Source: Dehalococcoidales bacterium (GTDB taxonomy: Bacteria; Chloroflexota; Dehalococcoidia; Dehalococcoidales; GCA-2688105). From it: a stretch of DNA of 33,812 bases. The notes under the pieces are model-generated. The model searched no databases. It saw only the letters and a list, made by a program, of their open reading frames with translations, and was not told the origin of the DNA. This document shows, piece by piece, positions 1-26,278 of the stretch. The translations under genes and the position numbers were made by a program. The first letter of the stretch is position 1. Each line of letters starts with the position of its first letter. The stretch is from contig DAOWJS010000006.1 in the NCBI GenBank assembly GCA_030640255.1, positions 1 to 33,812 on the forward strand. Direction: 5' to 3'.

Positions 1-180
1 CATAAGGTCGTGTAAAAAGTCCTCTCTATCCTCTCTCTTGACCTTGTGGACAAAGTATCGGGCTATCCTATAATAGGTAAGCCAGTCGCCAGTAAGCTGG
101 TCGTAACCGTTATTGTGGTAACCATTACCATTGTCTTGATACTGGTCAATAACCGTGTTATACTCGCCTATGTCTAGCAT
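1..180 (-). CDS. hypothetical protein, first 60 codons only (gene runs off the left edge)
   Basis: Unbroken minus-strand frame from ATG at 180-178 to the window edge (MLDIGEYNTVIDQYQDNGNGYHNNGYDQLTGDWLTYYRIARYFVHKVKREDREDFLHDLM...). All + frames carry stops. It is absent from the ORF track, probably because it is cut by the window edge. The REDREDFLHDLM end faintly resembles the start of sigma-70 region 2 but is too short to call. Confidence 0.35.
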   Translation of the reverse strand, partial: MLDIGEYNTVIDQYQDNGNGYHNNGYDQLTGDWLTYYRIARYFVHKVKREDREDFLHDLM

Positions 181-207
181 TGTGAGTTGACCTCCAGTGC
201 CTAGATT

Positions 208-247
208 TGCCCTAGCTTGGCTAATCACTGGCTAGGGCATTTTATTT
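208..247 (+). other. perfect hairpin TGCCCTAGC-N14-GCTAGGGCA followed by TTTTATTT; either a +-strand terminator-like element or an operator upstream of the minus-strand gene at 1-180
   Basis: 9-bp perfect inverted repeat at 208-216 / 231-239 with a T-run at 240-247. A further CCCTAG half-site lies at 249-254. No + strand gene lies upstream, so function is ambiguous. Confidence 0.4.
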
Positions 248-316
248 ACCCTAGACTAGGCAAGCGTTCAGGTTTGGCTTTTACCGATATTCAATTGTTA
301 AGGTGCTAGGAATATC

Positions 317-325
317 TGCTATAAT
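317..325 (+). promoter_or_regulatory. candidate extended -10 promoter (TGcTATAAT) facing the ORF-poor block
   Basis: TGCTATAAT at 317-325 is a perfect TGnTATAAT match. A TTGTTA lies at 295-300, but the 19-nt spacing is poor. The predicted start near 331-333 would transcribe 330-850 on the + strand. Confidence 0.35.
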
Positions 326-329
326 AAGT

Positions 330-464
330 ATGCTTTACAAAAGAGCCTTTAGAAAAGAAAAAGAAGTAGTTACTTTTTTGATAAAAGATAAAATGCTAAA
401 ATCAGCTTGGAACTTGAGAATTGAGCCTCGCCCCTACCAAAGCGACGCAACTGATTGGGCTTGA
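330..464 (+). CDS. possible 44-aa leaderless small ORF (very uncertain)
   Basis: ATG at 330 to TGA at 462-464 (MLYKRAFRKEKEVVTFLIKDKMLKSAWNLRIEPRPYQSDATDWA). There is no SD and it starts only 4-5 nt after the -10. No domain was recognised. It is below the ORF-track length cut-off. Confidence 0.15.
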   Translation: MLYKRAFRKEKEVVTFLIKDKMLKSAWNLRIEPRPYQSDATDWA

Positions 465-758
465 GCACAGAGGCAGGCAGTCTGATTGTCGGGGCAGTCT
501 AAACTCCCCAGCCAGATTATGGCACCTCACCGGAACCCGTCAGGTCTATTCTAGCCCAAGCCGCAGACTCACTGGCCCTCGGGAAATAGAATACAAGCCA
601 ATTTGTGCAGCAGTTAACCAAAACCCCATTATATATAAATATCCCATTCAAAAGCCCGGAAAGGGAGCTAAAAATTGATTCTAGGGCTTGAGAGCAAGGC
701 TTGTGCAGGAGCCGCCGTGCTAACAAACGCCTTGGCAAAGGAAGGAGCCTTGCCAGTG

Positions 759-786
759 TAGTCCAAGTTAGTCCAGCCCAGTCCAA
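759..786 (+). repeat. three helically phased (10-bp spacing) direct repeats of (T/C)AGTCCA
   Basis: tAGTCCAag ttAGTCCAgc ccAGTCCAac at 760, 770 and 780. Related AGTCTG/AGTCTA hexamers occur at 480, 496 and (inverted) 564. Confidence 0.5.
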
Positions 787-850
787 CCGATTTCATGTGT
801 CCCACATTCCCCCTGTTTAGGCAAATGTCAAACTTCCCTAATTTTCCCAT

Positions 851-1027
851 TTAGGTAGTTATCAAATTACCTAAAGATGGTATTACCTGAATTTTACCTG
901 CAGGTAGTTACCTAATTACCTTACCTAAATACCACCGCAGGTAATTACCTGAACTACCTTACCTAAATTACCTGCAGGTAGTTACCTAAAAAATTTACCA
1001 GAACTATTTACCAAATACCTAGGTAAT
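851..1027. repeat. dense array of TACCT/AGGTA half-sites forming five palindromes and a 21-bp direct repeat; candidate recombinase/replication/partition protein binding array
   Basis: Five palindromes: TTAGGTA-N10-TACCTAA (851-874), TACCTGCAGGTA (895-906), CAGGTAATTACCTG (938-951), TACCTGCAGGTA (969-980) and TACCTAGGTA (1016-1025). TTACCTGCAGGTAGTTACCTA is repeated exactly at 894-914 and 968-988, 74 bp apart. At least 12 TTACCT copies occur in ~180 bp. Confidence 0.8.
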
Positions 1028-1294
1028 TAACCAGCATCTTGGCTGAATAAAAGAGGAGGGGTTAGTATTAGAGTATGAAGTCAGGAACCAAGGTCTATAT
1101 CGCTCGCGAGGGTGGAGGCTAATGACCTCAGCAGGCTAGGCTTGTCCCGACCCGCCCAAGAAGCTTTCCAGATTACCACCATTAATATTCGTAGGAGCAT
1201 GGGGTGGCTTATGGTGGCTCTAGTTAGGAGGTAGCATTCTATTGTTGGGCATGTGTGTCGTTATACGCTTCAACTGTCCTATCACCGAAGATTG

Positions 1295-1741
1295 TCAACC
1301 AAACTCAGGGTGGGCTGCCCTCACCGGGTCTTGCCATCCGACCTCCTCAGCTTTCCCTTTGTCAGTCAGGCGATAGAACACGCGCTGCTCCAGGAAGTCG
1401 TAGATGGCCGGCTCCCGCCTATCTGTCGGTTCCACCAGGCCAAGCAGCTTGAACCAGTGAAAGTAGCGCGAAAACGAACTGTAGTTTGGCCTTTTGTAGG
1501 CTCTTTCCCCTATCTCAATTCTTTCTTCGTTTAGGTGTGCTATCTCGTCACTAAGAGCACGGTAGATGTCGGCAGCACAGGCCTCACCGTGCTCGACAAA
1601 ATACAGTTTTGTGAAAAGGCCAGGCCTATACAGACTGGCGCCTCTTCCCCAGGGGACAGCTATGCGCAGAGGATTCTGGTGTTGTTTTTCCTTTTTAGGC
1701 TCTTTCTTTGCCCTTGTAATCTTTGGTCTCTGTCGTCTCAT
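1295..1741 (-). CDS. winged-helix-like DNA-binding protein with Lys/Arg-rich N-terminal tail
   Basis: ORF 1295-1774, with starts possible at ATG 1741 or 1774. Both overlap the 3' end of the upstream recombinase gene. The tail RRQRPKITRAKKEPKKEKQ is followed by an HTH-plus-wing pattern (ADIYRALSDEI...SSFSRYFHWFKLLGLVE...RVFYRLTDKG). The family was not identified. Confidence 0.55.
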   Translation of the reverse strand: MRRQRPKITRAKKEPKKEKQHQNPLRIAVPWGRGASLYRPGLFTKLYFVEHGEACAADIYRALSDEIAHLNEERIEIGERAYKRPNYSSFSRYFHWFKLLGLVEPTDRREPAIYDFLEQRVFYRLTDKGKAEEVGWQDPVRAAHPEFG

Positions 1742-2447
1742 CTTCTTTGTTTTGCCACAGTTTCTCGTATTCACATCTCAGTTGCTCGAGGTTAGAATCG
1801 ACATATTCCATAGTCGTAGATATGCTGGCGTGGCCAAGCAGCACTTGGAGTTTCTTTGTATCGAGACCTTGGCTTACCCACATCGTAGCCAGCAAATGGC
1901 GCAGACTGTGAGGATGTAGTCCCTTTATCCCTATCCGCCGGCCGAGCTTCTCAACCAGTTGCCAGCCGCGTTGGCGAGTGAATGGAAATACTAGCGGCCC
2001 GCGATAAGGAAATTTACGCCGCCATTGCAGATATTCATGTAGCAGTCGTAAAGTATAACGGTCAACAGGTATCGTTCGCTGTCGCCGTTGCTTGACCTTC
2101 TCGCGTAGAGCCTGGTCTACCTTATTCCCACAACCTGGGCAGAAGAGATGCCGTTTACCTAAAATCTCGCCACAGTTGGGGCATTTCAGTTTCAACCGCT
2201 CTTTCAAGCGTACAATGGTTAAAGTTCCCCTTTTAGAGTCAATGTCACCTTCCTTCAGTTGGATGGCTTCAGAAATGCGTATCCCGTCCCTCGCTAGTAC
2301 GGCAATAAAAGCCTTATCCCTGGGGTTGAGGGCGGCGGCGATGAGCCTCTTCTGCAGCTGCTCAAGCTCAAAGTATCCTTTTAGGTCGCGTATCGAAGTA
2401 ACCTGTGTCATCCAATTAACCTCGTCCTTGCTCTTCAGTGGTTTCAC
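1695..2447 (-). CDS. tyrosine recombinase (Rec1), catalytic domain only, with internal 4-Cys zinc ribbon
   Basis: Motifs present: DGIRISEA (Arg I), HPHSLRHLLAT (HxxR), LLGHASISTTMEYV (His, Tyr). Insert is CPNCGEILGKRHLFCPGCGNKV. The likely start is ATG 2411 (GAGG 8 nt upstream) rather than GTG 2447. Confidence 0.85.
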   Translation of the reverse strand: MKPLKSKDEVNWMTQVTSIRDLKGYFELEQLQKRLIAAALNPRDKAFIAVLARDGIRISEAIQLKEGDIDSKRGTLTIVRLKERLKLKCPNCGEILGKRHLFCPGCGNKVDQALREKVKQRRQRTIPVDRYTLRLLHEYLQWRRKFPYRGPLVFPFTRQRGWQLVEKLGRRIGIKGLHPHSLRHLLATMWVSQGLDTKKLQVLLGHASISTTMEYVDSNLEQLRCEYEKLWQNKEDETTETKDYKGKERA

Positions 2448-2568
2448 CAGATGTTTTATACAGCATTAGGCGAATACAGTGGGGAGATATCAGTTGGCCG
2501 GCTCTCCCCTTTCTATCTTCTACGTCTACCAAAACCTCGGCCTCCGCATTGCCTTCGTGACTGGCTCA

Positions 2569-3339
2569 TTACACCTTTACTTTGACACTAAACGGTAAAA
2601 ATTGTGTGTTATTGTGACTATGCAGACACCACAGCCTGTTATACCATTGACGGTGCTCTTCCCCGGCAACCTTTCGGTATCTGGCTGTGGTATTAAAGCT
2701 GGCATGTCCTAGATGCTCCTGAAGCAACCTGAGCCCATCACCGGAATCATCCACCTTCATCGCATGAACGCTGAAGGCATCCCTGAGGCGATGAGGACTG
2801 ACACCCCTTAGCCTCCCCGTTTCAGGGTTAACCAGGGATGGCAGCCCAGCCCGTCTGGCACAGTCCCTTACTATCTGCCACGCACGGTGTCGGTTGAGAC
2901 TGAAGAGGGGCGACTTGCTATCGCTTGAGCTCAGTTCATGGATATAGCACTTGATCATCTCAAGGGTGATTTCGTCAACAGGCAACACCCTGATGCGTCT
3001 TCTTTCCTGCTGACTTCGTATAGTCGCACTGACCTTAACCCCGCATCCGGGGCAGAACTGATGCTGACTGCCCAACCGCGTTTTACAGCTGGGGCAGCAG
3101 AGCTTTAAGCTTCTCTTTAGATGTAGGATTGTGATGGTGTTTTGCTGGAAATCTACGTCCTCTACTTTAAGGGCAAGTACTTCCGATATCCGGCACCCCA
3201 GACGGGAAAGCAGTCTGATGAGTAGCCTATCTCTCCGAGAACCTGCAACTCCCTCCATCAGTTCTATATCAGCCAATTCAAGATACGCTTTCATTTGTGG
3301 GCACTTCCAGAGAATTCTTGATTCGGCGCTTAGCCTCAA
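2569..3339 (-). CDS. tyrosine recombinase (Rec2), catalytic domain only, with internal 4-Cys zinc ribbon
   Basis: Motifs present: LGCRISEV, SPHRLRDAFS, HLGHASFNTTARYRKV. Insert is CCPSCKTRLGSQHQFCPGCGVKV. The TTG at 3339 is doubtful; ATG 3294 (MKAYLELADIEL...) is the more likely start. Confidence 0.85.
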   Translation of the reverse strand: MRLSAESRILWKCPQMKAYLELADIELMEGVAGSRRDRLLIRLLSRLGCRISEVLALKVEDVDFQQNTITILHLKRSLKLCCPSCKTRLGSQHQFCPGCGVKVSATIRSQQERRRIRVLPVDEITLEMIKCYIHELSSSDSKSPLFSLNRHRAWQIVRDCARRAGLPSLVNPETGRLRGVSPHRLRDAFSVHAMKVDDSGDGLRLLQEHLGHASFNTTARYRKVAGEEHRQWYNRLWCLHSHNNTQFLPFSVKVKV

Positions 3340-3484
3340 GGTATCTTCGCTTCATGGTATCCCGGCTAACATATTCGCTGGTCAACTCGCGATATACTTC
3401 GGCCATCTTCGACCAGCCGAGATTCTGGCCATCACGCAAGCGCAAAACTATAGCAAAATCCACAGAGAGTCTTGGCCTACCCAT
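3278..3484 (-). CDS. small resolvase/Hin-type helix-turn-helix protein
   Basis: MGRPRLSVDFAIVLRLRDGQNLGWSKMAEVYRELTSEYVSRDTMKRRY matches the GRPR...G.S...IA....VSR.T..RR pattern of HTH_7-like domains. Its ATG overlaps the Rec3 stop by 8 nt (ATGGGTAG), suggesting translational coupling. Confidence 0.6.
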   Translation of the reverse strand: MGRPRLSVDFAIVLRLRDGQNLGWSKMAEVYRELTSEYVSRDTMKRRYLEAKRRIKNSLEVPTNESVS

Positions 3485-4208
3485 TTCTATCCTTTCGGTG
3501 ATGACGACCGGTTTTGCTTAATATTTGGTCTATCCTGTAACCTCTCAGCTTTCTTATACCCATTTGGTCAACCGGGGATAGCGTCTTACCATTTATCAAA
3601 GCCTGACTCGAAGCGTAGTGCACATACCGACGCACCATTTCGAGGTTATTGTGGCCCAGTATCTGTTGTAATCGGAAAACATCTCCGCAGTTGTGGATGA
3701 GGTAATTGGTGGCAAAGGTGTGACGACACAAATGAGCGTGTAATCTTGGTACGCCCGCCTTCTTGCCCCAGCGTCTAATCAATAATTTGACTGCGTTGGC
3801 TCGCAACGGTTTACCATCGAGGGTGAGGAGGAGATAGTTATCGGCTTTGACCAGGGGTTCAGGACGAAAGTGAATAATATCCCGCCAGAGCATCTTCTGT
3901 GCCGATGCGCCAATAGGTACTATTCTCTCCTTACCTCCCTTGCTCATGACTTTCAAATAGCCTTGCTCAACATGGGCATCTTCGAAACGCAAACCACAAA
4001 GCTCACTGAGTCTGACCCCAGTATCGAGCATGACTATCAGGATAGCTATATCACGGCAGCCAATAGCAGTTAATGGATTTTGACAGTCAACTAGCTGGTC
4101 TAAATGTTCCTTCAGGAGCTGTGGAATTTCGTCAGAGAATGGGTGGCTTGACGAAAGGTCATTGTGAGTGCTATCGTTATTCATAGGAGCTACTCTCTTC
4201 GGCGCCAC
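3477..4208 (-). CDS. tyrosine recombinase (Rec3), canonical catalytic domain, no N-terminal core-binding domain
   Basis: Motifs present: TGVRLSEL, SKGGKERIVPI (Lys hairpin), HLCRHTFAT, ILGHNNLEMVRRYVHY. Only ~25 aa precede the catalytic domain. The start is GTG 4208 or ATG 4184. Confidence 0.88.
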   Translation of the reverse strand: MAPKRVAPMNNDSTHNDLSSSHPFSDEIPQLLKEHLDQLVDCQNPLTAIGCRDIAILIVMLDTGVRLSELCGLRFEDAHVEQGYLKVMSKGGKERIVPIGASAQKMLWRDIIHFRPEPLVKADNYLLLTLDGKPLRANAVKLLIRRWGKKAGVPRLHAHLCRHTFATNYLIHNCGDVFRLQQILGHNNLEMVRRYVHYASSQALINGKTLSPVDQMGIRKLRGYRIDQILSKTGRHHRKDRNG

Positions 4209-4419
4209 CAGTTAGAGCATCTTCCGCGGGAGCTTGACAGGGTGGCTTTCCTTTTTCAGCATTCGCTGGGTTCCCTTTTGATCGCAAGGCATCCCTCGCT
4301 GCCGCCTTCAGCAGAATGTCGATGACGCGGGAGAGCCTCGCACTACCATCAGGAGTAGCGACATGACGTATGCTTACCACTAGGCGTTTTTGATTTTGCT
4401 TACCTTGCTTTTTAGGCAC
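4177..4419 (-). CDS. small basic hypothetical protein upstream of the recombinases
   Basis: GTG start at 4419 preceded by GGAGAGGTAAGGCGGA. N-terminus is MPKKQGKQNQKR, followed by VVSIRHVATPDGSARLSRVIDILLKAAARDA and a low-complexity C-terminus. It overlaps the Rec3 start. No family was recognised. Confidence 0.4.
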   Translation of the reverse strand: MPKKQGKQNQKRLVVSIRHVATPDGSARLSRVIDILLKAAARDALRSKGNPANAEKGKPPCQAPAEDALTGGAEESSSYE

Positions 4420-4517
4420 TCCGCCTTACCTCTCCATTGCCGACCACCAGCTCACAACCTCGGCCAGCCTCACCACCGAAAGGAGCGGGGCGGCGATAAG
4501 TCATTCTAACTGTTAGT

Positions 4518-4706
4518 TTATTTGCCGATTTCCGCTTTGCCATCGCCTTGTCTTTTCAACGGGCGGATGGTTAGTTCGCCGTCCGCAATCATCTCCAGCC
4601 TGTCGCCTGCCCTCAGCCCATAGTATTCCGCCCAGCCCTTGGGGACTGTTACTACGAGCCCACCCTTGCCCATCCTTATCAGACTTCTGCGTAGTAAGGT
4701 CGGCAT
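4518..4706 (-). CDS. AbrB/SpoVT (MazE-like) swapped-hairpin DNA-binding protein
   Basis: GLVVTVPKGWAEYYGLRAGDRLEMIADGELTIRP is the typical SpoVT-AbrB pattern. ATG at 4706 has GAGGTGA 5-6 nt upstream; the track ORF extends to GTG 4715. Confidence 0.75.
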   Translation of the reverse strand: MPTLLRRSLIRMGKGGLVVTVPKGWAEYYGLRAGDRLEMIADGELTIRPLKRQGDGKAEIGK

Positions 4707-4775
4707 ATAACTCACCTCTTGCCTGTTTCTATGAACAATGCTAGACTAAGCTCAAAAGACAGAACAGAGGGAGTT

Positions 4776-5438
4776 ATGTCCATATCTGACGTATTGAGGA
4801 GAGGCATTGCTCTCACGCCTTTAGAGGTCCAGGTCTTTGAGAGCGAGTACATTCGGAAAGTTCAGGAATATCCTTCTGTCGCTGCGAGGTGCGGCGGATA
4901 CTTACTCAAGGTTTACGAGCGCATAAGAAAGATAGAGCAAAACTGCAACGTATGGCGTCAAGGTCATGTCGTCTTGTTACGAATGGCTTTGGACTTGGAT
5001 GAGAACTCCCTTGATAAGATACTTCAAAGCAGCCATTTGTGGCTTAGCGCAGTGAACTTTGGACAAGCAGGGGCTCCGTTCGTGAACCGCTACTTCATAG
5101 CTATCAAGCTCCTGATAGGGGTGCCAGAGAGGGTCGTCGTGGCAGAGGAGGTCAGGCGTCACCTGGACGTGACCCGCCTGTGGCACTGCCGGGTCTGTGG
5201 GTATGAGTGGGAGAGCAGGGGACAAGCGATTTGCCCCAGATGTGAAAGCAAGGATGCGAAAAACCTCCCAATTGGAGCGAAGGAGATAAAGCAGGCCGAG
5301 GTAGCTGCCCACAAGAGGGTTCAACGGGCGAGAGACTTAGCCAAGATTCTGTGCTTGTACTTTATTCGCGGTTTTGTCAAAGAGGTCACCGAAAAAGCGG
5401 TGCCCGCTGATGCTTCATGCTGGGTCAGAGTCAAATGA
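4776..5438 (+). CDS. hypothetical protein with C-terminal CxxC...CxxC zinc ribbon
   Basis: ORF 4719-5438. Candidate starts are ATG 4776 (GAGGGAG just upstream) or ATG 4731. The ribbon is CRVCGYEWESRGQAICPRCES. It is divergent from the AbrB gene with a ~70-nt shared control region. No known domain was recognised in the N-terminal 140 aa. Confidence 0.5.
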   Translation: MSISDVLRRGIALTPLEVQVFESEYIRKVQEYPSVAARCGGYLLKVYERIRKIEQNCNVWRQGHVVLLRMALDLDENSLDKILQSSHLWLSAVNFGQAGAPFVNRYFIAIKLLIGVPERVVVAEEVRRHLDVTRLWHCRVCGYEWESRGQAICPRCESKDAKNLPIGAKEIKQAEVAAHKRVQRARDLAKILCLYFIRGFVKEVTEKAVPADASCWVRVK

Positions 5439-5533
5439 GCAACCTAGACAAGCGGCTCGGGAAATAAGCTGGTTGGGCGGCGTGATGTCTCTCATTGCAA
5501 GTGAACCAAGCGTTGCCTCTAACTAAATCGTGA

Positions 5534-6367
5534 ATGGAGTCTAGGAGGTCTGACATAGTAGAAAGCGCTGGCAAAGACCTACCTCAAGAAGAGCAGTTTA
5601 TTCAACGAATCAAATCGCTGAGGTCGGAGGATGTTAACCATATGGGAGCCATCATAGGGCAAGCCGGAATAGGCAAACTGAGGCGAACCGACCGCTACTA
5701 TCCATTGAGATTCCTTGCGGACGGTATCGATGCCTATAGGTATGGTTTTGACAATGCGGTTGTTTTCTATGCGGGAACGGCTTTGGAACTAGCGTTACTG
5801 GCTTTGTTGCGAGACATAATAAAGCAAGAACGGCAGCGAAACCCCAAGCTTCATGTGGATTTCAAATGGCTAATAGACCACTCTGGAAACCTGCTGGACG
5901 AGGCGGGAACGAATCTGTGCCACAAAGTTCGGATAATGAGGAATTGTTACATTCACTATGAGAACATAGTGGCTCATATTGCTTGGATGCAAGAGGTCGA
6001 TTGGCCCGAAAAGAGGGAAGAGGAGAAGGCAAAGCTTGGAAATGACCCCGAAGCAGTAAAATTCATTGACTCGCTTACTCAATTAATGGATGACCTGTAT
6101 AGCAGAGAGGGAATGTTGCCAATTCGCTTTGAACATCTGGAAACAAATAGGGAAGTAATGTCGTTTATTGAAAATCGATACAAGCAGTATATGAACTGGC
6201 TACCCCAGGCTTGGTCTTCCAAGAAGCGAGAACTCACCAGAGAAGAGTTCGATAACATCTATAGCATTGAGGCTTTTGACGCTCTGCATTGCATAACTTG
6301 GGTTTCCGAAGTCATTAGGAAACTGAATCTTATCTCCTTTTCTGGTCAGCCAGTACTGCTAGAGTGA
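5534..6367 (+). CDS. HEPN-domain (DUF4145-like, RNxxxH) protein, possible RNase toxin / abortive-infection effector
   Basis: A helical segment AVVFYAGTALELALLALLRD is followed ~45 aa later by KVRIMRNCYIHY, with R136-N-x3-H141 encoded at 5939-5956. This matches the Rx4-6H HEPN signature in its usual context. The ~130-aa C-terminus is unassigned. An alternative start is ATG 5642. Confidence 0.55.
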   Translation: MESRRSDIVESAGKDLPQEEQFIQRIKSLRSEDVNHMGAIIGQAGIGKLRRTDRYYPLRFLADGIDAYRYGFDNAVVFYAGTALELALLALLRDIIKQERQRNPKLHVDFKWLIDHSGNLLDEAGTNLCHKVRIMRNCYIHYENIVAHIAWMQEVDWPEKREEEKAKLGNDPEAVKFIDSLTQLMDDLYSREGMLPIRFEHLETNREVMSFIENRYKQYMNWLPQAWSSKKRELTREEFDNIYSIEAFDALHCITWVSEVIRKLNLISFSGQPVLLE

Positions 6368-6602
6368 ACGGAATGTTGTGATTATTGATTGTTGCAGGCC
6401 GACGCCTTCACTCTAATAACAAATGCCACCAACTGTAACTGACGAGGAAGTTCTCTAGGTAGTGTCACCTTCTGCTCTCATGAGGTCAGTCCAGAAACCG
6501 GTTAAGCTCTAAACGCTACGTCGCCTTGATTGTTTAGCGAGGGGTTTTATTAGGACAAGGCGAAGAGATTCTGGAATCTGTAAGGGTGTATCAATTGCAT
6601 CC

Positions 6603-6817
6603 AATCCCCCTCCCTTGATAAGGGAGGGGGAACGAGGTGTGTAAGAGAGGCTTCGCCTCTCTTTGACTCTCCCTTAGTATTGCCTCTCTTTGGACTCTCC
6701 TTTAGGAATTTATTAAGGAGATTTTTTATCAACCTCACCCCCTGTGTCCCCCTCTCCTTCAAAGGAGAGGGGGAGGAGTAGTTGGTGAAGGGGCGAAGCC
6801 CCTTCCAACTACTCCTC
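6603..6817. repeat. cluster of GC-rich perfect hairpin modules (REP/MITE-like dispersed palindromic repeat family), copy A
   Basis: Hairpins at 6606-6630 (11-bp stem), 6644-6662 (AGAGAGGC-TTC-GCCTCTCT), 6748-6773 (12-bp stem CCCCCTCTCCTT/AAGGAGAGGGGG) and 6773-6817 (~21-bp stem). The modules recur in inverted orientation at 33662-33752. Confidence 0.85.
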
Positions 6818-26081: not shown

Positions 26082-26222
26082 GAGGGAAAATTTAATAGGA
26101 AGCTTGGAGGTGCCTGAGACGATTCAGGCGTAACCGGAGAGCAAGTCGGTGAAAATCCGACGCAGTACCGCCTACTGTGACTGGTAATCTTACCAGAAGC
26201 CAGAACGCCGGGCCTCTGTGTA
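26082..26222 (+). promoter_or_regulatory. cobalamin (B12) riboswitch aptamer
   Basis: Core is GTCGGTGAAAATCCGACGCAGTACCGCCTACTGTGA (GGTGnnAAnnCC...CCGCnACTGT), followed by a B12-box-like GAAGCCAGAACGCCGGGCC. It sits upstream of btuCD and cob genes. Confidence 0.85.
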
Positions 26223-26278
26223 TCCTATAACTTCCGCGGAGAAAGGGGAGTGGGATAAATAGCCAGAGCCTGGTGATG

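What the first reader, a model, noticed from the sequence alone, without database searches (positions are those of the whole stretch)
851..1027. Dense TACCT/AGGTA palindrome and iteron array next to the recombinase block
About 180 bp contain at least 12 TTACCT copies arranged as five palindromes: TTAGGTA-N10-TACCTAA, TACCTGCAGGTA twice, the perfect 14-mer CAGGTAATTACCTG, and TACCTAGGTA. A perfect 21-bp direct repeat (894-914 = 968-988) recurs 74 bp apart, about seven helical turns. No ORF explains this. Its position directly downstream of the wHTH gene and the recombinase trio suggests a multi-site protein-binding locus. It could be att/arm-type sites, a replication origin with iterons, or a partition centromere.
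Basis: seen in the sequence. Interest (0 to 1): 0.65.

Follow-up and report, generated by a model that had tools for sequence, protein, structure and literature searches.

The report
Orphan binding-site array in mobile element
A 177-bp stretch packed with 21 copies of a short DNA word is a real docking array for a DNA-binding protein inside a widespread, undescribed mobile element of sediment Dehalococcoidia; it is one of many such arrays with element-specific words, but here the gene for its reader protein is missing next to it.

Summary
Window 851-1027 has 12 exact TTACCT/AGGTAA (0.12 expected locally), 21 TACC cores, four perfect palindromes, a 22-nt perfect direct repeat and a 37-nt higher-order period. 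It is single-copy, not a dispersed repeat.

The window is a cold-seep metagenome scaffold. The array lies inside a mobile-element family of Dehalococcoidia whose hallmark is a short Xer-like recombinase plus an overlapping winged-helix gene (>1200 protein clusters). The exact TTACCT array is not conserved. However, 21 of 85 relatives carry a dense array of some other 6-8-nt word in the same slot. Such arrays are about 6-fold enriched there.

In relatives these arrays abut genes for small DNA-binding proteins. All seven independent RHH-zinc-finger genes examined are preceded by 5-12 GGTAA repeats, and an HTH family by GGGAAT/CAGGGA boxes.

The best reading is a cooperative operator-type array for such a protein.

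The winged-helix recognition helix is invariant and the recombinases lack arm-binding domains, so they are unlikely readers. Origin, centromere and att readings are not excluded but lack their defining partners. This is an ordinary kind of feature in a new family; interest is moderate.

The parts
851..1027 (.). Dense array of 21 TACC(T) boxes (15 as TTACC on +, which is GGTAA on the minus strand; 6 inverted). 33% GC.
896..989 (.). 37-nt higher-order tandem repeat inside the array (2.6 copies), with GCAGGTA(G/A)TTACCT at 900, 937 and 974.
894..915 (+). First copy of the 22-nt perfect direct repeat TTACCTGCAGGTAGTTACCTAA.
968..989 (+). Second copy of the 22-nt perfect direct repeat.
826..850 (-). 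Array-proximal degenerate boxes ATGGGAAAATTAGGGAAG (GGGAA type) and a TTGACA hexamer.
668..850 (-). 60-aa ORF directly after the array; judged not to be a gene. It has no homologue in the protein database, and abundant near-identical variants carry 1-nt and 7-nt indels inside it. The stretch 717-857 is conserved as DNA.
753..786 (+). Three AGTCCA repeats about 10 nt apart. This is a second repeat type that recurs in relatives, usually 43 nt after the winged-helix stop codon.
641..690 (-). Conserved terminator-like hairpin plus T-run segment. It is found in many contexts at depth above 1000 and follows the RHH-Zn gene in L071.
190..485 (-). Conserved non-coding region (promoter-like, AT-rich core) upstream of the next conserved gene. 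It is 50-100x deeper than its flanks in metagenomes and is present in more than 30 related loci.
1..180 (-). Start of the conserved gene that follows the slot (88% identical to L008). It is possibly sigma-factor-like, on a weak hit in a paralogue only. It runs off the scaffold end.
1295..1741 (-). 148-aa conserved winged-helix protein of PadR/RTP/TubR-like fold. No Pfam family; more than 1200 homologue clusters at 70-80% identity.
1695..2447 (-). Rec1: Xer-like tyrosine recombinase, catalytic domain only, with an inserted zinc ribbon. It overlaps the winged-helix gene and is its universal partner in relatives.
2569..3339 (-). Rec2: second zinc-ribbon Xer-like recombinase. Present in only a few relatives.
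3477..4208 (-). Rec3: third Xer-like recombinase. Present in only a few relatives.
3278..3484 (-). 68-aa protein with a weak resolvase-type HTH match. Unique to the window among 117 loci; a candidate reader.
4518..4715 (-). 65-aa AbrB/MazE-fold DNA-binding protein. Unique to the window among 117 loci; a candidate reader.

Best explanation
The array is a cluster of about 21 binding boxes for a small sequence-specific DNA-binding protein of the mobile element. It belongs to a recurrent class of element-specific repeat arrays. These occupy the variable slot between the Xer-like recombinase/winged-helix gene pair and the conserved promoter region of the next operon.

In relatives such arrays run directly into the start codon of the gene for their presumed reader, which is either a ribbon-helix-helix plus zinc-finger protein or an HTH protein. 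The likely mechanism there is cooperative coating of the array, giving switch-like autorepression that senses copy number or confers immunity.

In the window the boxes (A)GGTAA(T) resemble those of both reader families, but no reader gene follows. The array is therefore an orphan site. It would be read in trans by a protein encoded elsewhere in this element (beyond the scaffold end, or the window-specific AbrB-like or 68-aa HTH proteins) or by a co-resident related element.

For: 1. The box density is far beyond chance and the array is single-copy.

2. The class recurs. There are 25 arrays (at least 6 copies of a 6-mer in 200 nt) in 190 kb of the 0-3 kb slot downstream of the winged-helix gene, against 11 in 505 kb elsewhere and 0 in a shuffle. 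21 of 85 loci with enough flank have one. The words differ per element: TGGGGA, AAGACA, GAGTCC, ACACTT, TATGGAC, CAGGGA, CACGGA, GGGACA, TGTCAA, GGAATA and GGTAAA.

3. All seven independent RHH-Zn genes inspected (L008, L009, L018, L071, L113, L114, L115) have 3-12 direct (A/G)(T/G)GG(T/C)AA repeats at 11-12 nt spacing ending at the start codon. In addition, 17 of 32 database homologues inspected carry N-terminal over-calls (MVNVRVNGMVKGRV...) that are translated GGTAAA arrays.

4. HTH148/169 homologues (L069 x2, L079, L107) are likewise preceded by GGGAAT or CAGGGA boxes ending at ATG.

5. The window array sits at the same distance and orientation as the L008/L009 arrays. The distance from the winged-helix stop to the next conserved gene is 1115 versus 1111 nt, and 15 of 21 boxes read GGTAA on the gene strand. 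The array ends in ATGGGAAAATTAGGGAAG, where relatives have ATGGTAAAG....

6. Variable half-site spacing and mixed orientation match arrays read box by box by RHH proteins: parH/ParG (PMC3130281) and the omega heptads (PMC9499535).
Against: - No reader gene or relic lies next to the array.
- The boxes differ from RHH-Zn boxes at the flanking positions: AGGTAAT versus T/GGGTAAAC.
- The boxes lack the strict 11-12-nt phasing of RHH-Zn arrays and are mixed in orientation.
- No sigma-70-like promoter is predicted in or next to the array.
- What follows the array is non-coding DNA and a terminator-like hairpin, so there is no obvious regulated gene.
- There is no binding or expression data. The one metatranscriptome tried gave no coverage.
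Confidence: 0.45

Rival explanations
1. The array is a partition centromere. A centromere-binding protein coats it and couples the episomal form of the element to a ParA/ParM/TubZ-type motor.
For: The array architecture, many short boxes in direct and inverted order with AT-rich spacers, is that of parH/ParG and the omega heptads (PMC3130281, PMC9499535). Relatives pair arrays with RHH-type genes. The neighbouring winged-helix protein has a fold shared with TubR and the pNOB8 AspA centromere binders, but only weakly.
Against: No ParA, ParM or TubZ family appears in the gene tables of ten related loci or in the window's element part. The fold match is generic PadR-like (E about 1e-2). It is unknown whether this element variant is maintained as an episome.
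Confidence: 0.15
2. The array consists of replication-origin iterons. The element's initiator (a Prim-Pol or D5-type primase-helicase in relatives) binds the boxes and melts adjacent AT-rich DNA, and the box word sets replicon specificity.
For: The words are element-specific, as expected of iterons. The array is AT-rich (33% GC). It lies about 370 nt from a conserved AT-rich non-coding region and upstream of a sliding-clamp-like gene in relatives. Relatives encode Prim-Pol or D5 replicases.
Against: In relatives an origin-like structure lies elsewhere: GGGGAGTTAG iterons in both orientations flanking an AT-rich core, inside the 3' end of the Prim-Pol gene (L028, L077). Arrays of the window type abut regulator genes, not rep genes. 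No rep gene is in the window. The conserved AT-rich region is conserved at sequence level, like a promoter rather than an unwinding element.
Confidence: 0.12
3. The array provides accessory or arm-type sites for site-specific recombination. The three Xer-like recombinases and/or the winged-helix protein assemble on it to control integration, excision, resolution or inversion.
For: The array is adjacent to three intact tyrosine recombinase genes, with catalytic R, HxxR, H and Y readable in all three. The palindromes resemble recombinase core sites. The single-stranded DNA folds better than shuffles (z -4.3).
Against: - Relatives with 70-77% identical Rec1 and winged-helix proteins lack the TTACCT word.
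- The winged-helix recognition helix is invariant while array words vary.
- The recombinases are 243-256 aa with only the catalytic domain, so they have no arm-binding domain.
- The array is internal, not at an element end.
- No joints or breakpoints fall in the array in contigs of eight runs.
- The constant AGTCCA repeats are a better candidate for the conserved proteins.
Confidence: 0.08
4. The array is a decaying relic. It would be a former operator array that lost its reader gene and then drifted or expanded by 37-nt tandem duplication, with no present function.
For: There is a higher-order 37-nt duplication. The ORF that follows is not a gene.
Against: Four perfect palindromes and a 22-nt perfect repeat argue against long neutral decay. 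The array is near-identical in runs from other studies. Variants of its right part occur at high depth in other samples.
Confidence: 0.1

Closest known systems
parH centromere / OF operator of plasmid TP228, read by the RHH protein ParG (PMC3130281)
   Same: About 100-180 bp of many degenerate short boxes (4-5 nt core) separated by AT-rich spacers, in direct and inverted order, with tolerant geometry. Binding is presumed to be cooperative coating.
   Different: There is no ParF-type ATPase and no adjacent RHH gene in the window. The box word is TACCT, not ACTC. Binding is untested.
Omega (RHH) heptad arrays of pSM19035, which serve as both parS and operators (PMC9499535)
   Same: Contiguous short repeats in mixed orientation upstream of the regulator's own gene in relatives. 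They would have a dual regulatory and copy-number role.
   Different: The boxes here are irregularly spaced (5-16 nt), not contiguous heptads. No delta/ParA partner is present. The array is orphan in the window.
parC of plasmid R1, read by ParR: 11-bp direct iterons around the promoter (own knowledge, not checked in a paper here)
   Same: The RHH-Zn arrays of the relatives (5-12 direct repeats at 11-12 nt running into the gene start) look like this.
   Different: The window's own array lacks the strict period. No ParM is present.
SaPI/PICI and phage P4 origins: element-specific short iterons read by a primase-helicase (own knowledge)
   Same: Element-specific 6-8-nt words in both orientations. 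Relatives encode Prim-Pol or D5 replicases.
   Different: In relatives the origin-like iteron/AT-rich structure lies inside the replicase gene 3' end, not in this slot.
RIT (recombinase-in-trio) elements (own knowledge)
   Same: Three adjacent tyrosine recombinase genes.
   Different: The trio is not a conserved unit here. Relatives have one or two of the genes, and a 68-aa gene is interposed. The proteins are catalytic-domain-only Xer-like.

Membership tests
Variable-word repeat arrays in the slot downstream of the Xer-like recombinase/winged-helix pair (class defined here) | At least 6 copies of a 6-mer, in either orientation, within 200 nt. | tested here: met
   11-12 copies of AGGTAA.
Variable-word repeat arrays in the slot downstream of the Xer-like recombinase/winged-helix pair (class defined here) | Location 0-3 kb downstream of the winged-helix gene and upstream of the conserved non-coding region. 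| tested here: met
   The array starts 268 nt after the stop codon. The conserved region lies at 190-485.
Variable-word repeat arrays in the slot downstream of the Xer-like recombinase/winged-helix pair (class defined here) | The array abuts the start of a small DNA-binding protein gene. | tested here: not met
   There is no RHH-Zn or HTH148 gene or relic. The following ORF is not a gene.
RHH-type centromere/operator arrays (ParG-parH, omega, ParR-parC) | Four or more clustered short repeats, direct and/or inverted. | tested here: met
RHH-type centromere/operator arrays (ParG-parH, omega, ParR-parC) | A cognate RHH protein encoded in the locus. | tested here: not met
   Absent in the window. 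Present in relatives, with weak RHH support.
RHH-type centromere/operator arrays (ParG-parH, omega, ParR-parC) | A partner partition NTPase (ParA, ParM or ParF). | tested here: not met
   None in the window's element part or in the gene tables of ten related loci. The element is incomplete, so this is not exhaustive.
RHH-type centromere/operator arrays (ParG-parH, omega, ParR-parC) | Specific cooperative binding of the protein to the array. | not testable with these tools
   Needs EMSA or footprinting.
Iteron-type replication origin | An adjacent gene for the initiator that reads the iterons. | tested here: not met
   There is no rep-like gene in the window. The scaffold ends 0.9 kb away.
Iteron-type replication origin | Iterons flanking or adjoining an AT-rich unwinding region. 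| tested here: inconclusive
   The array itself is 33% GC. The conserved AT-rich DNA is about 370 nt away. In relatives a clearer origin-like structure lies inside the Prim-Pol gene.
att / arm-type sites of a tyrosine integrase | Location at or next to the element end / core crossover site. | tested here: not met
   Conserved element DNA lies on both sides. No joints fall in the array.
att / arm-type sites of a tyrosine integrase | A recombinase with an N-terminal arm-binding domain. | tested here: not met
   Rec1-3 are 243-256 aa and only the catalytic domain matches.
att / arm-type sites of a tyrosine integrase | Sites co-conserved with the recombinase. | tested here: not met
   Relatives with 60-77% identical Rec1 lack the word.
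RIT (recombinase in trio) element | Three recombinase genes conserved as a unit. | tested here: not met
   Only Rec1 is universal. Rec2 and Rec3 are sporadic.

The most novel reading that the evidence does not exclude
The slot is a specificity-exchange site. Each element carries a private pair of repeat array and small reader protein that sets immunity or incompatibility between competing elements. The window's reader-less array would then be a decoy that titrates the repressor of a co-resident relative. Alternatively, the slot is a cassette position serviced by the conserved Xer-like recombinase/winged-helix pair acting at the constant AGTCCA repeats that flank it in several relatives.
Probability: 0.1. 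Interest if true: 0.7.

Novelty: new member of a known kind. Interest (0 to 1): 0.38.

Why it matters
The array itself is a familiar kind of object: a multi-box protein docking site on a mobile element. Its value is as an entry point to an abundant mobile-element family of sediment Dehalococcoidia that is undescribed as far as my limited literature searches show. The family has more than 1200 winged-helix protein clusters, is absent from IMG/VR and PLSDB, and has no Pfam family for its hallmark protein.

The family shows a clear pattern of element-specific repeat arrays paired with fast-diverging small DNA-binding proteins. That pattern gives directly testable protein/DNA pairs, for example RHH-Zn with GGTAA repeats. 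It also offers a handle on how these elements avoid interfering with each other. For annotation, it shows that gene callers routinely over-extend the RHH-Zn genes into their own operator arrays.

Tried and rejected
**Searches that found nothing or little**
- DNA search of 1-4800 against plasmids: no match.
- Protein searches of the winged-helix and RHH-Zn proteins against plasmids: no match.
- IMG/VR scan with the winged-helix alignment: no relatives.
- Rfam on the whole window: only a cobalamin riboswitch far away. Rfam with permissive E-value on 1-1400: only chance miRNA-hairpin hits on the palindromes.
- tRNA scan: none.

**The ORF and candidate readers**
- The 60-aa ORF after the array is rejected as a gene. 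It has no homologue, and abundant variants carry frameshifting indels.
- RHH-Zn relic search in 1-1400 by tblastn and HMM: nothing.
- HTH148/169 and other array-adjacent proteins against the window: nothing.
- The 68-aa HTH compared with array-adjacent HTH proteins: no similarity.
- No TACCT-type palindromes near the AbrB-like gene's own upstream region.

**Other checks**
- PDB sequence search with the winged-helix profile: no hit. The fold search gave only generic PadR-like matches.
- Promoter/terminator scan: nothing in the array.
- RNA fold of the array plus downstream region is not better than shuffles (z -1.5).
- The metatranscriptome run X27 gave no coverage.
- The IME1 elements of Dehalococcoides (bioRxiv 10.64898/2026.09.15.751708) were read. 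I did not equate them with this family, because the paper mentions none of the hallmark genes.
- An idea that the AGTCCA module is inverted in the window relative to L030 was dropped. The shared AAGTTGGACTACAC has the same orientation relative to the winged-helix gene in L047 and L066.

Full report
**1. The observation**

There are 12 exact TTACCT/AGGTAA hexamers between 867 and 1026. The whole window has 54, against 20.7 +/- 4.5 in dinucleotide shuffles. Shuffles of the 177 bp itself give 0.12 on average and at most 3, and no other 177-bp window holds more than 2.

At the level of the 4-nt core there are 21 TACC/GGTA boxes, 15 in one orientation and 6 in the other. The consensus is (G)TAAT-TACCT-(A/G)AA. 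Four perfect palindromes are present, and the perfect direct repeat is 22 nt (894-915 = 968-989).

The array has a 37-nt higher-order period (TRF score 128; GCAGGTA(G/A)TTACCT at 900, 937 and 974). It is 33% GC in a roughly 50% GC context. No ORF of 40 aa or more crosses it.

**2. Where the window comes from and what surrounds the array**

The window is part of a 53.8-kb ENA metagenome scaffold and starts 46 nt from its end. Public runs that hold it are cold-seep and marine-sediment metagenomes.

On the minus strand the gene order is:
- an AbrB/MazE-fold gene (4518-4715)
- an 80-aa gene
- Rec3 (3477-4208)
- a 68-aa gene with a weak resolvase-HTH match
- Rec2 (2569-3339)
- Rec1 (1695-2447)
- an overlapping 148-aa gene with no Pfam family (1295-1741)
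- 268 nt of non-coding DNA
- the array.

All three recombinases are Xer-like and match only over the catalytic domain. Two carry an inserted zinc ribbon. An AlphaFold model of the 148-aa protein (pLDDT 77; 90 or more over most of the fold) is a winged helix.

After the array come, in order:
- degenerate boxes ATGGGAAAATTAGGGAAG
- three AGTCCA repeats (753-786)
- a terminator-like conserved hairpin (641-690)
- a conserved non-coding region (about 190-485)
- the start of a conserved gene that runs off the scaffold.

**3. The array is not a dispersed repeat and the ORF after it is not a gene**

In the source study's runs the array has the same depth as the flanking single-copy DNA. By contrast, the conserved non-coding region at 235-468 is 50-100 times deeper.

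In a soil run, 2080-6632 is 98-99% identical but the array is absent, with a breakpoint near 2080 inside Rec1. Near-identical copies of the array occur at low depth in runs of other studies. In one other sample, variants of its right part and of 717-857 occur at depth 200-800 in other arrangements.

Those abundant variants carry 1-nt and 7-nt indels inside the 60-aa ORF (668-850), and that ORF has no homologue. I therefore treat it as non-coding. No joints were seen in the array, but only assembler contigs were available, not raw reads.

**4. Relatives**

The winged-helix protein has more than 1200 homologue clusters at about 70-80% identity, mostly on short contigs. Scans with its alignment gave 26 genome loci, of which 22 are labelled Dehalococcoidia, Dehalococcoidales, Chloroflexota or Chloroflexia. 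They also gave 80 metagenome loci and none in IMG/VR.

The universal module is Rec1 plus the winged-helix gene. The trio is not conserved. Longer contigs place the pair inside integrative elements that carry a classical 393-401-aa integrase, an Xis-like HTH, a Prim-Pol or D5 primase-helicase, cargo such as DISARM genes, and a sliding-clamp-like gene.

Between the winged-helix gene and the conserved non-coding region lies a slot of 0.5-5 kb with variable content.

**5. The array as a class**

The TTACCT word itself is not found clustered in any relative. Dense arrays of other short words are, however, common in the same slot.
- There are 25 arrays in 190 kb of slot, against 11 in 505 kb elsewhere and none in a shuffle.
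- 21 of 85 loci with enough flank have one.
- The words include TGGGGA, AAGACA, GAGTCC, ACACTT, TATGGAC, CAGGGA, CACGGA, GGGACA, TGTCAA, GGAATA and GGTAAA. They often occur in direct plus inverted order and with higher-order periods of 22-44 nt, like the window's.

**6. What the arrays sit next to**

In L008 and L009 the array is 8-10 direct GGTAAA repeats at 11 nt. These two loci are the closest in layout to the window: 1111 versus 1115 nt between the winged-helix stop and the next conserved gene, which is 88% identical. Their array starts 180-230 nt after the winged-helix stop and runs into the start codon of a 116-aa protein.

That protein family has 66 homologues. One is named CopG/RHH by its source and one carries a Pfam RHH_1 hit. 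It has an N-terminal beta-alpha-alpha unit and a C-terminal CxxC...H...C unit. The best fold matches are Arc and CopG, but they are not significant.

Every independent gene of this family that I inspected (L008, L009, L018, L071, L113, L114, L115) has 3-12 (A/G)(T/G)GG(T/C)AA repeats at 11-12 nt ending at its ATG. In addition, 17 of 32 database entries are over-called into the array, giving MVNVRVNGMVKGRV-type N-termini.

A second family (HTH148/169; L069 twice, L079, L107; homologous at E 1e-6) is preceded in the same way by GGGAAT or CAGGGA boxes ending at ATG. Other arrays abut winged-helix or HTH genes (L079, L097).

I infer from this adjacency that such arrays are the operators of the small proteins encoded beside them.

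**7. The window's array in that light**

Its boxes, (A)GGTAA(T), share GGTAA with the RHH-Zn boxes and differ by one base from the GGGAAT boxes of the HTH148 family. 15 of 21 have the orientation seen in relatives. The array ends in ATGGGAAAATTAGGGAAG at the place where relatives have their start codon.

However, the window holds no RHH-Zn or HTH148 gene, not even a relic. The box spacing is irregular (5-16 nt), and no promoter is predicted. The array is thus an orphan member of the class.

The AbrB-like and 68-aa proteins occur in none of the other 116 loci. They are therefore formal candidates for a window-specific reader, but nothing ties them to the word.

**8. Who is unlikely to read it**

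The winged-helix protein's helix 87-99 and wing are nearly invariant across relatives whose arrays differ. It should therefore recognise something constant.

A constant repeat does exist. AGTCCA pairs occur 50 times against 0.6 expected, in 16 loci. They typically start 43 nt after the winged-helix stop and often recur further downstream. The window has three at 760-785.

The recombinases lack any arm-binding domain.

**9. Origin and centromere readings**

In Prim-Pol-bearing relatives an origin-like structure lies inside the 3' end of the replicase gene, not in the slot. It consists of GGGGAGTTAG in both orientations around an AT-rich core. No partition NTPase appears in any gene table.

Both readings remain possible, because the window's element is truncated 0.9 kb from the array. 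Each, however, lacks its defining partner.

**10. Comparison with known systems and verdict**

The nearest known objects are the multi-box arrays read by RHH proteins. These are parH/OF of TP228 (degenerate tetramer boxes with AT-rich spacers and tolerant geometry; PMC3130281) and the omega heptads of pSM19035 (PMC9499535). The window's array works like these at the level of architecture. Membership fails on the adjacent reader gene and the NTPase partner.

It is a new member of a known kind, a protein-docking repeat array on a mobile element. It sits in an element family I could not find described.

My confidence that it is a protein-binding array is about 0.8. My confidence that it is specifically an operator-type array read in trans by an RHH-Zn-like or HTH148-like protein is about 0.45.

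Noticed in passing
window 6553-6810: A cluster of GC-rich hairpins (CCCCCTCCCTTGATAAGGGAGGGGG, AGAGAGGCTTCGCCTCTCT, CCCCCTCTCCTTCAAAGGAGAGGGGG, GAAGGGGCGAAGCCCCTTC). Word depth is 4e3-2e5 against 12-55 in the flanks, with many alternative joints. It is a REP/MITE-like dispersed repeat, possibly at the right border of the mobile element.
   Followed up: partly
window 190-485 (core about 300-400): A near-invariant non-coding stretch (TTATCAAAAAAGTAACTACTTCTTTTTCTTTTCTAAAGGCTCTTTTGTAAAG on the minus strand). It lies upstream of the conserved gene at 1-180. It is 50-100x deeper than its neighbours and is found in more than 30 related loci, in either orientation relative to the recombinase pair. 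It could be a promoter for an element-specific factor or an origin component.
   Followed up: partly
window 753-786; L030 10496-10521, 10643-10660, 13141-13168; L038, L039, L077, L095 at +43 after the winged-helix stop: AGTCCA repeats about 10 nt apart: 50 pairs against 0.6 expected, nearly always in one orientation. They often occur as two clusters bracketing the variable slot. They are candidate sites for the conserved winged-helix protein or Rec1.
   Followed up: partly
window 1295-2447 and all related loci: A catalytic-domain-only Xer-like recombinase with an inserted zinc ribbon is always paired with an overlapping, highly conserved 148-aa winged-helix gene that has no Pfam family. There are more than 1200 clusters, none in IMG/VR or PLSDB.
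   Followed up: partly
window about 2080: In a soil-metagenome run, 2080-6632 is 98-99% identical but the contig diverges completely to the left of about 2080, inside Rec1. This is a recombination breakpoint between element variants.
   Followed up: no
window 641-690: A terminator-like hairpin plus T-run (minus strand) present at depth above 1000 in many different contexts. The same segment follows the RHH-Zn gene in L071. It looks like a module boundary.
   Followed up: no
L028 8860-9030; L077 380-580 and 690-880: An origin-like structure inside the 3' end of the Prim-Pol gene: GGGGAGTTAG iterons in both orientations around an AT-rich core. In L077 a second array of GGTTGTGCAC repeats follows just downstream.
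   Followed up: no
L039 about 6500-6590; L094 819-953 and 1360-1515; L038 824-985: A small conserved peptide (MEQINKSLQSLESLPG..HWTSP) is encoded right after arrays of the TTTAGCTAGGGACAG type, behind a TTGACAAAG motif.
   Followed up: no
P0122-P0184 (RHH-Zn homologues): Gene callers extend many RHH-Zn genes upstream into their own GGTAAA arrays. This creates artificial N-termini such as MVNVRVNGMVKGRVNDMVKGK.
   Followed up: yes
window 26091-26231: A cobalamin riboswitch (Rfam RF00174, 37.9 bits) lies upstream of a plus-strand operon. It is host DNA, unrelated to the finding.
   Followed up: no
whole window outside 851-1027: TTACCT/AGGTAA is still about 2-fold over-represented (42 sites; the whole-window shuffle expectation is 20.7). 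It occurs as isolated sites or pairs (for example 10343/10349). The cause is unknown, possibly codon or dinucleotide usage.
   Followed up: no
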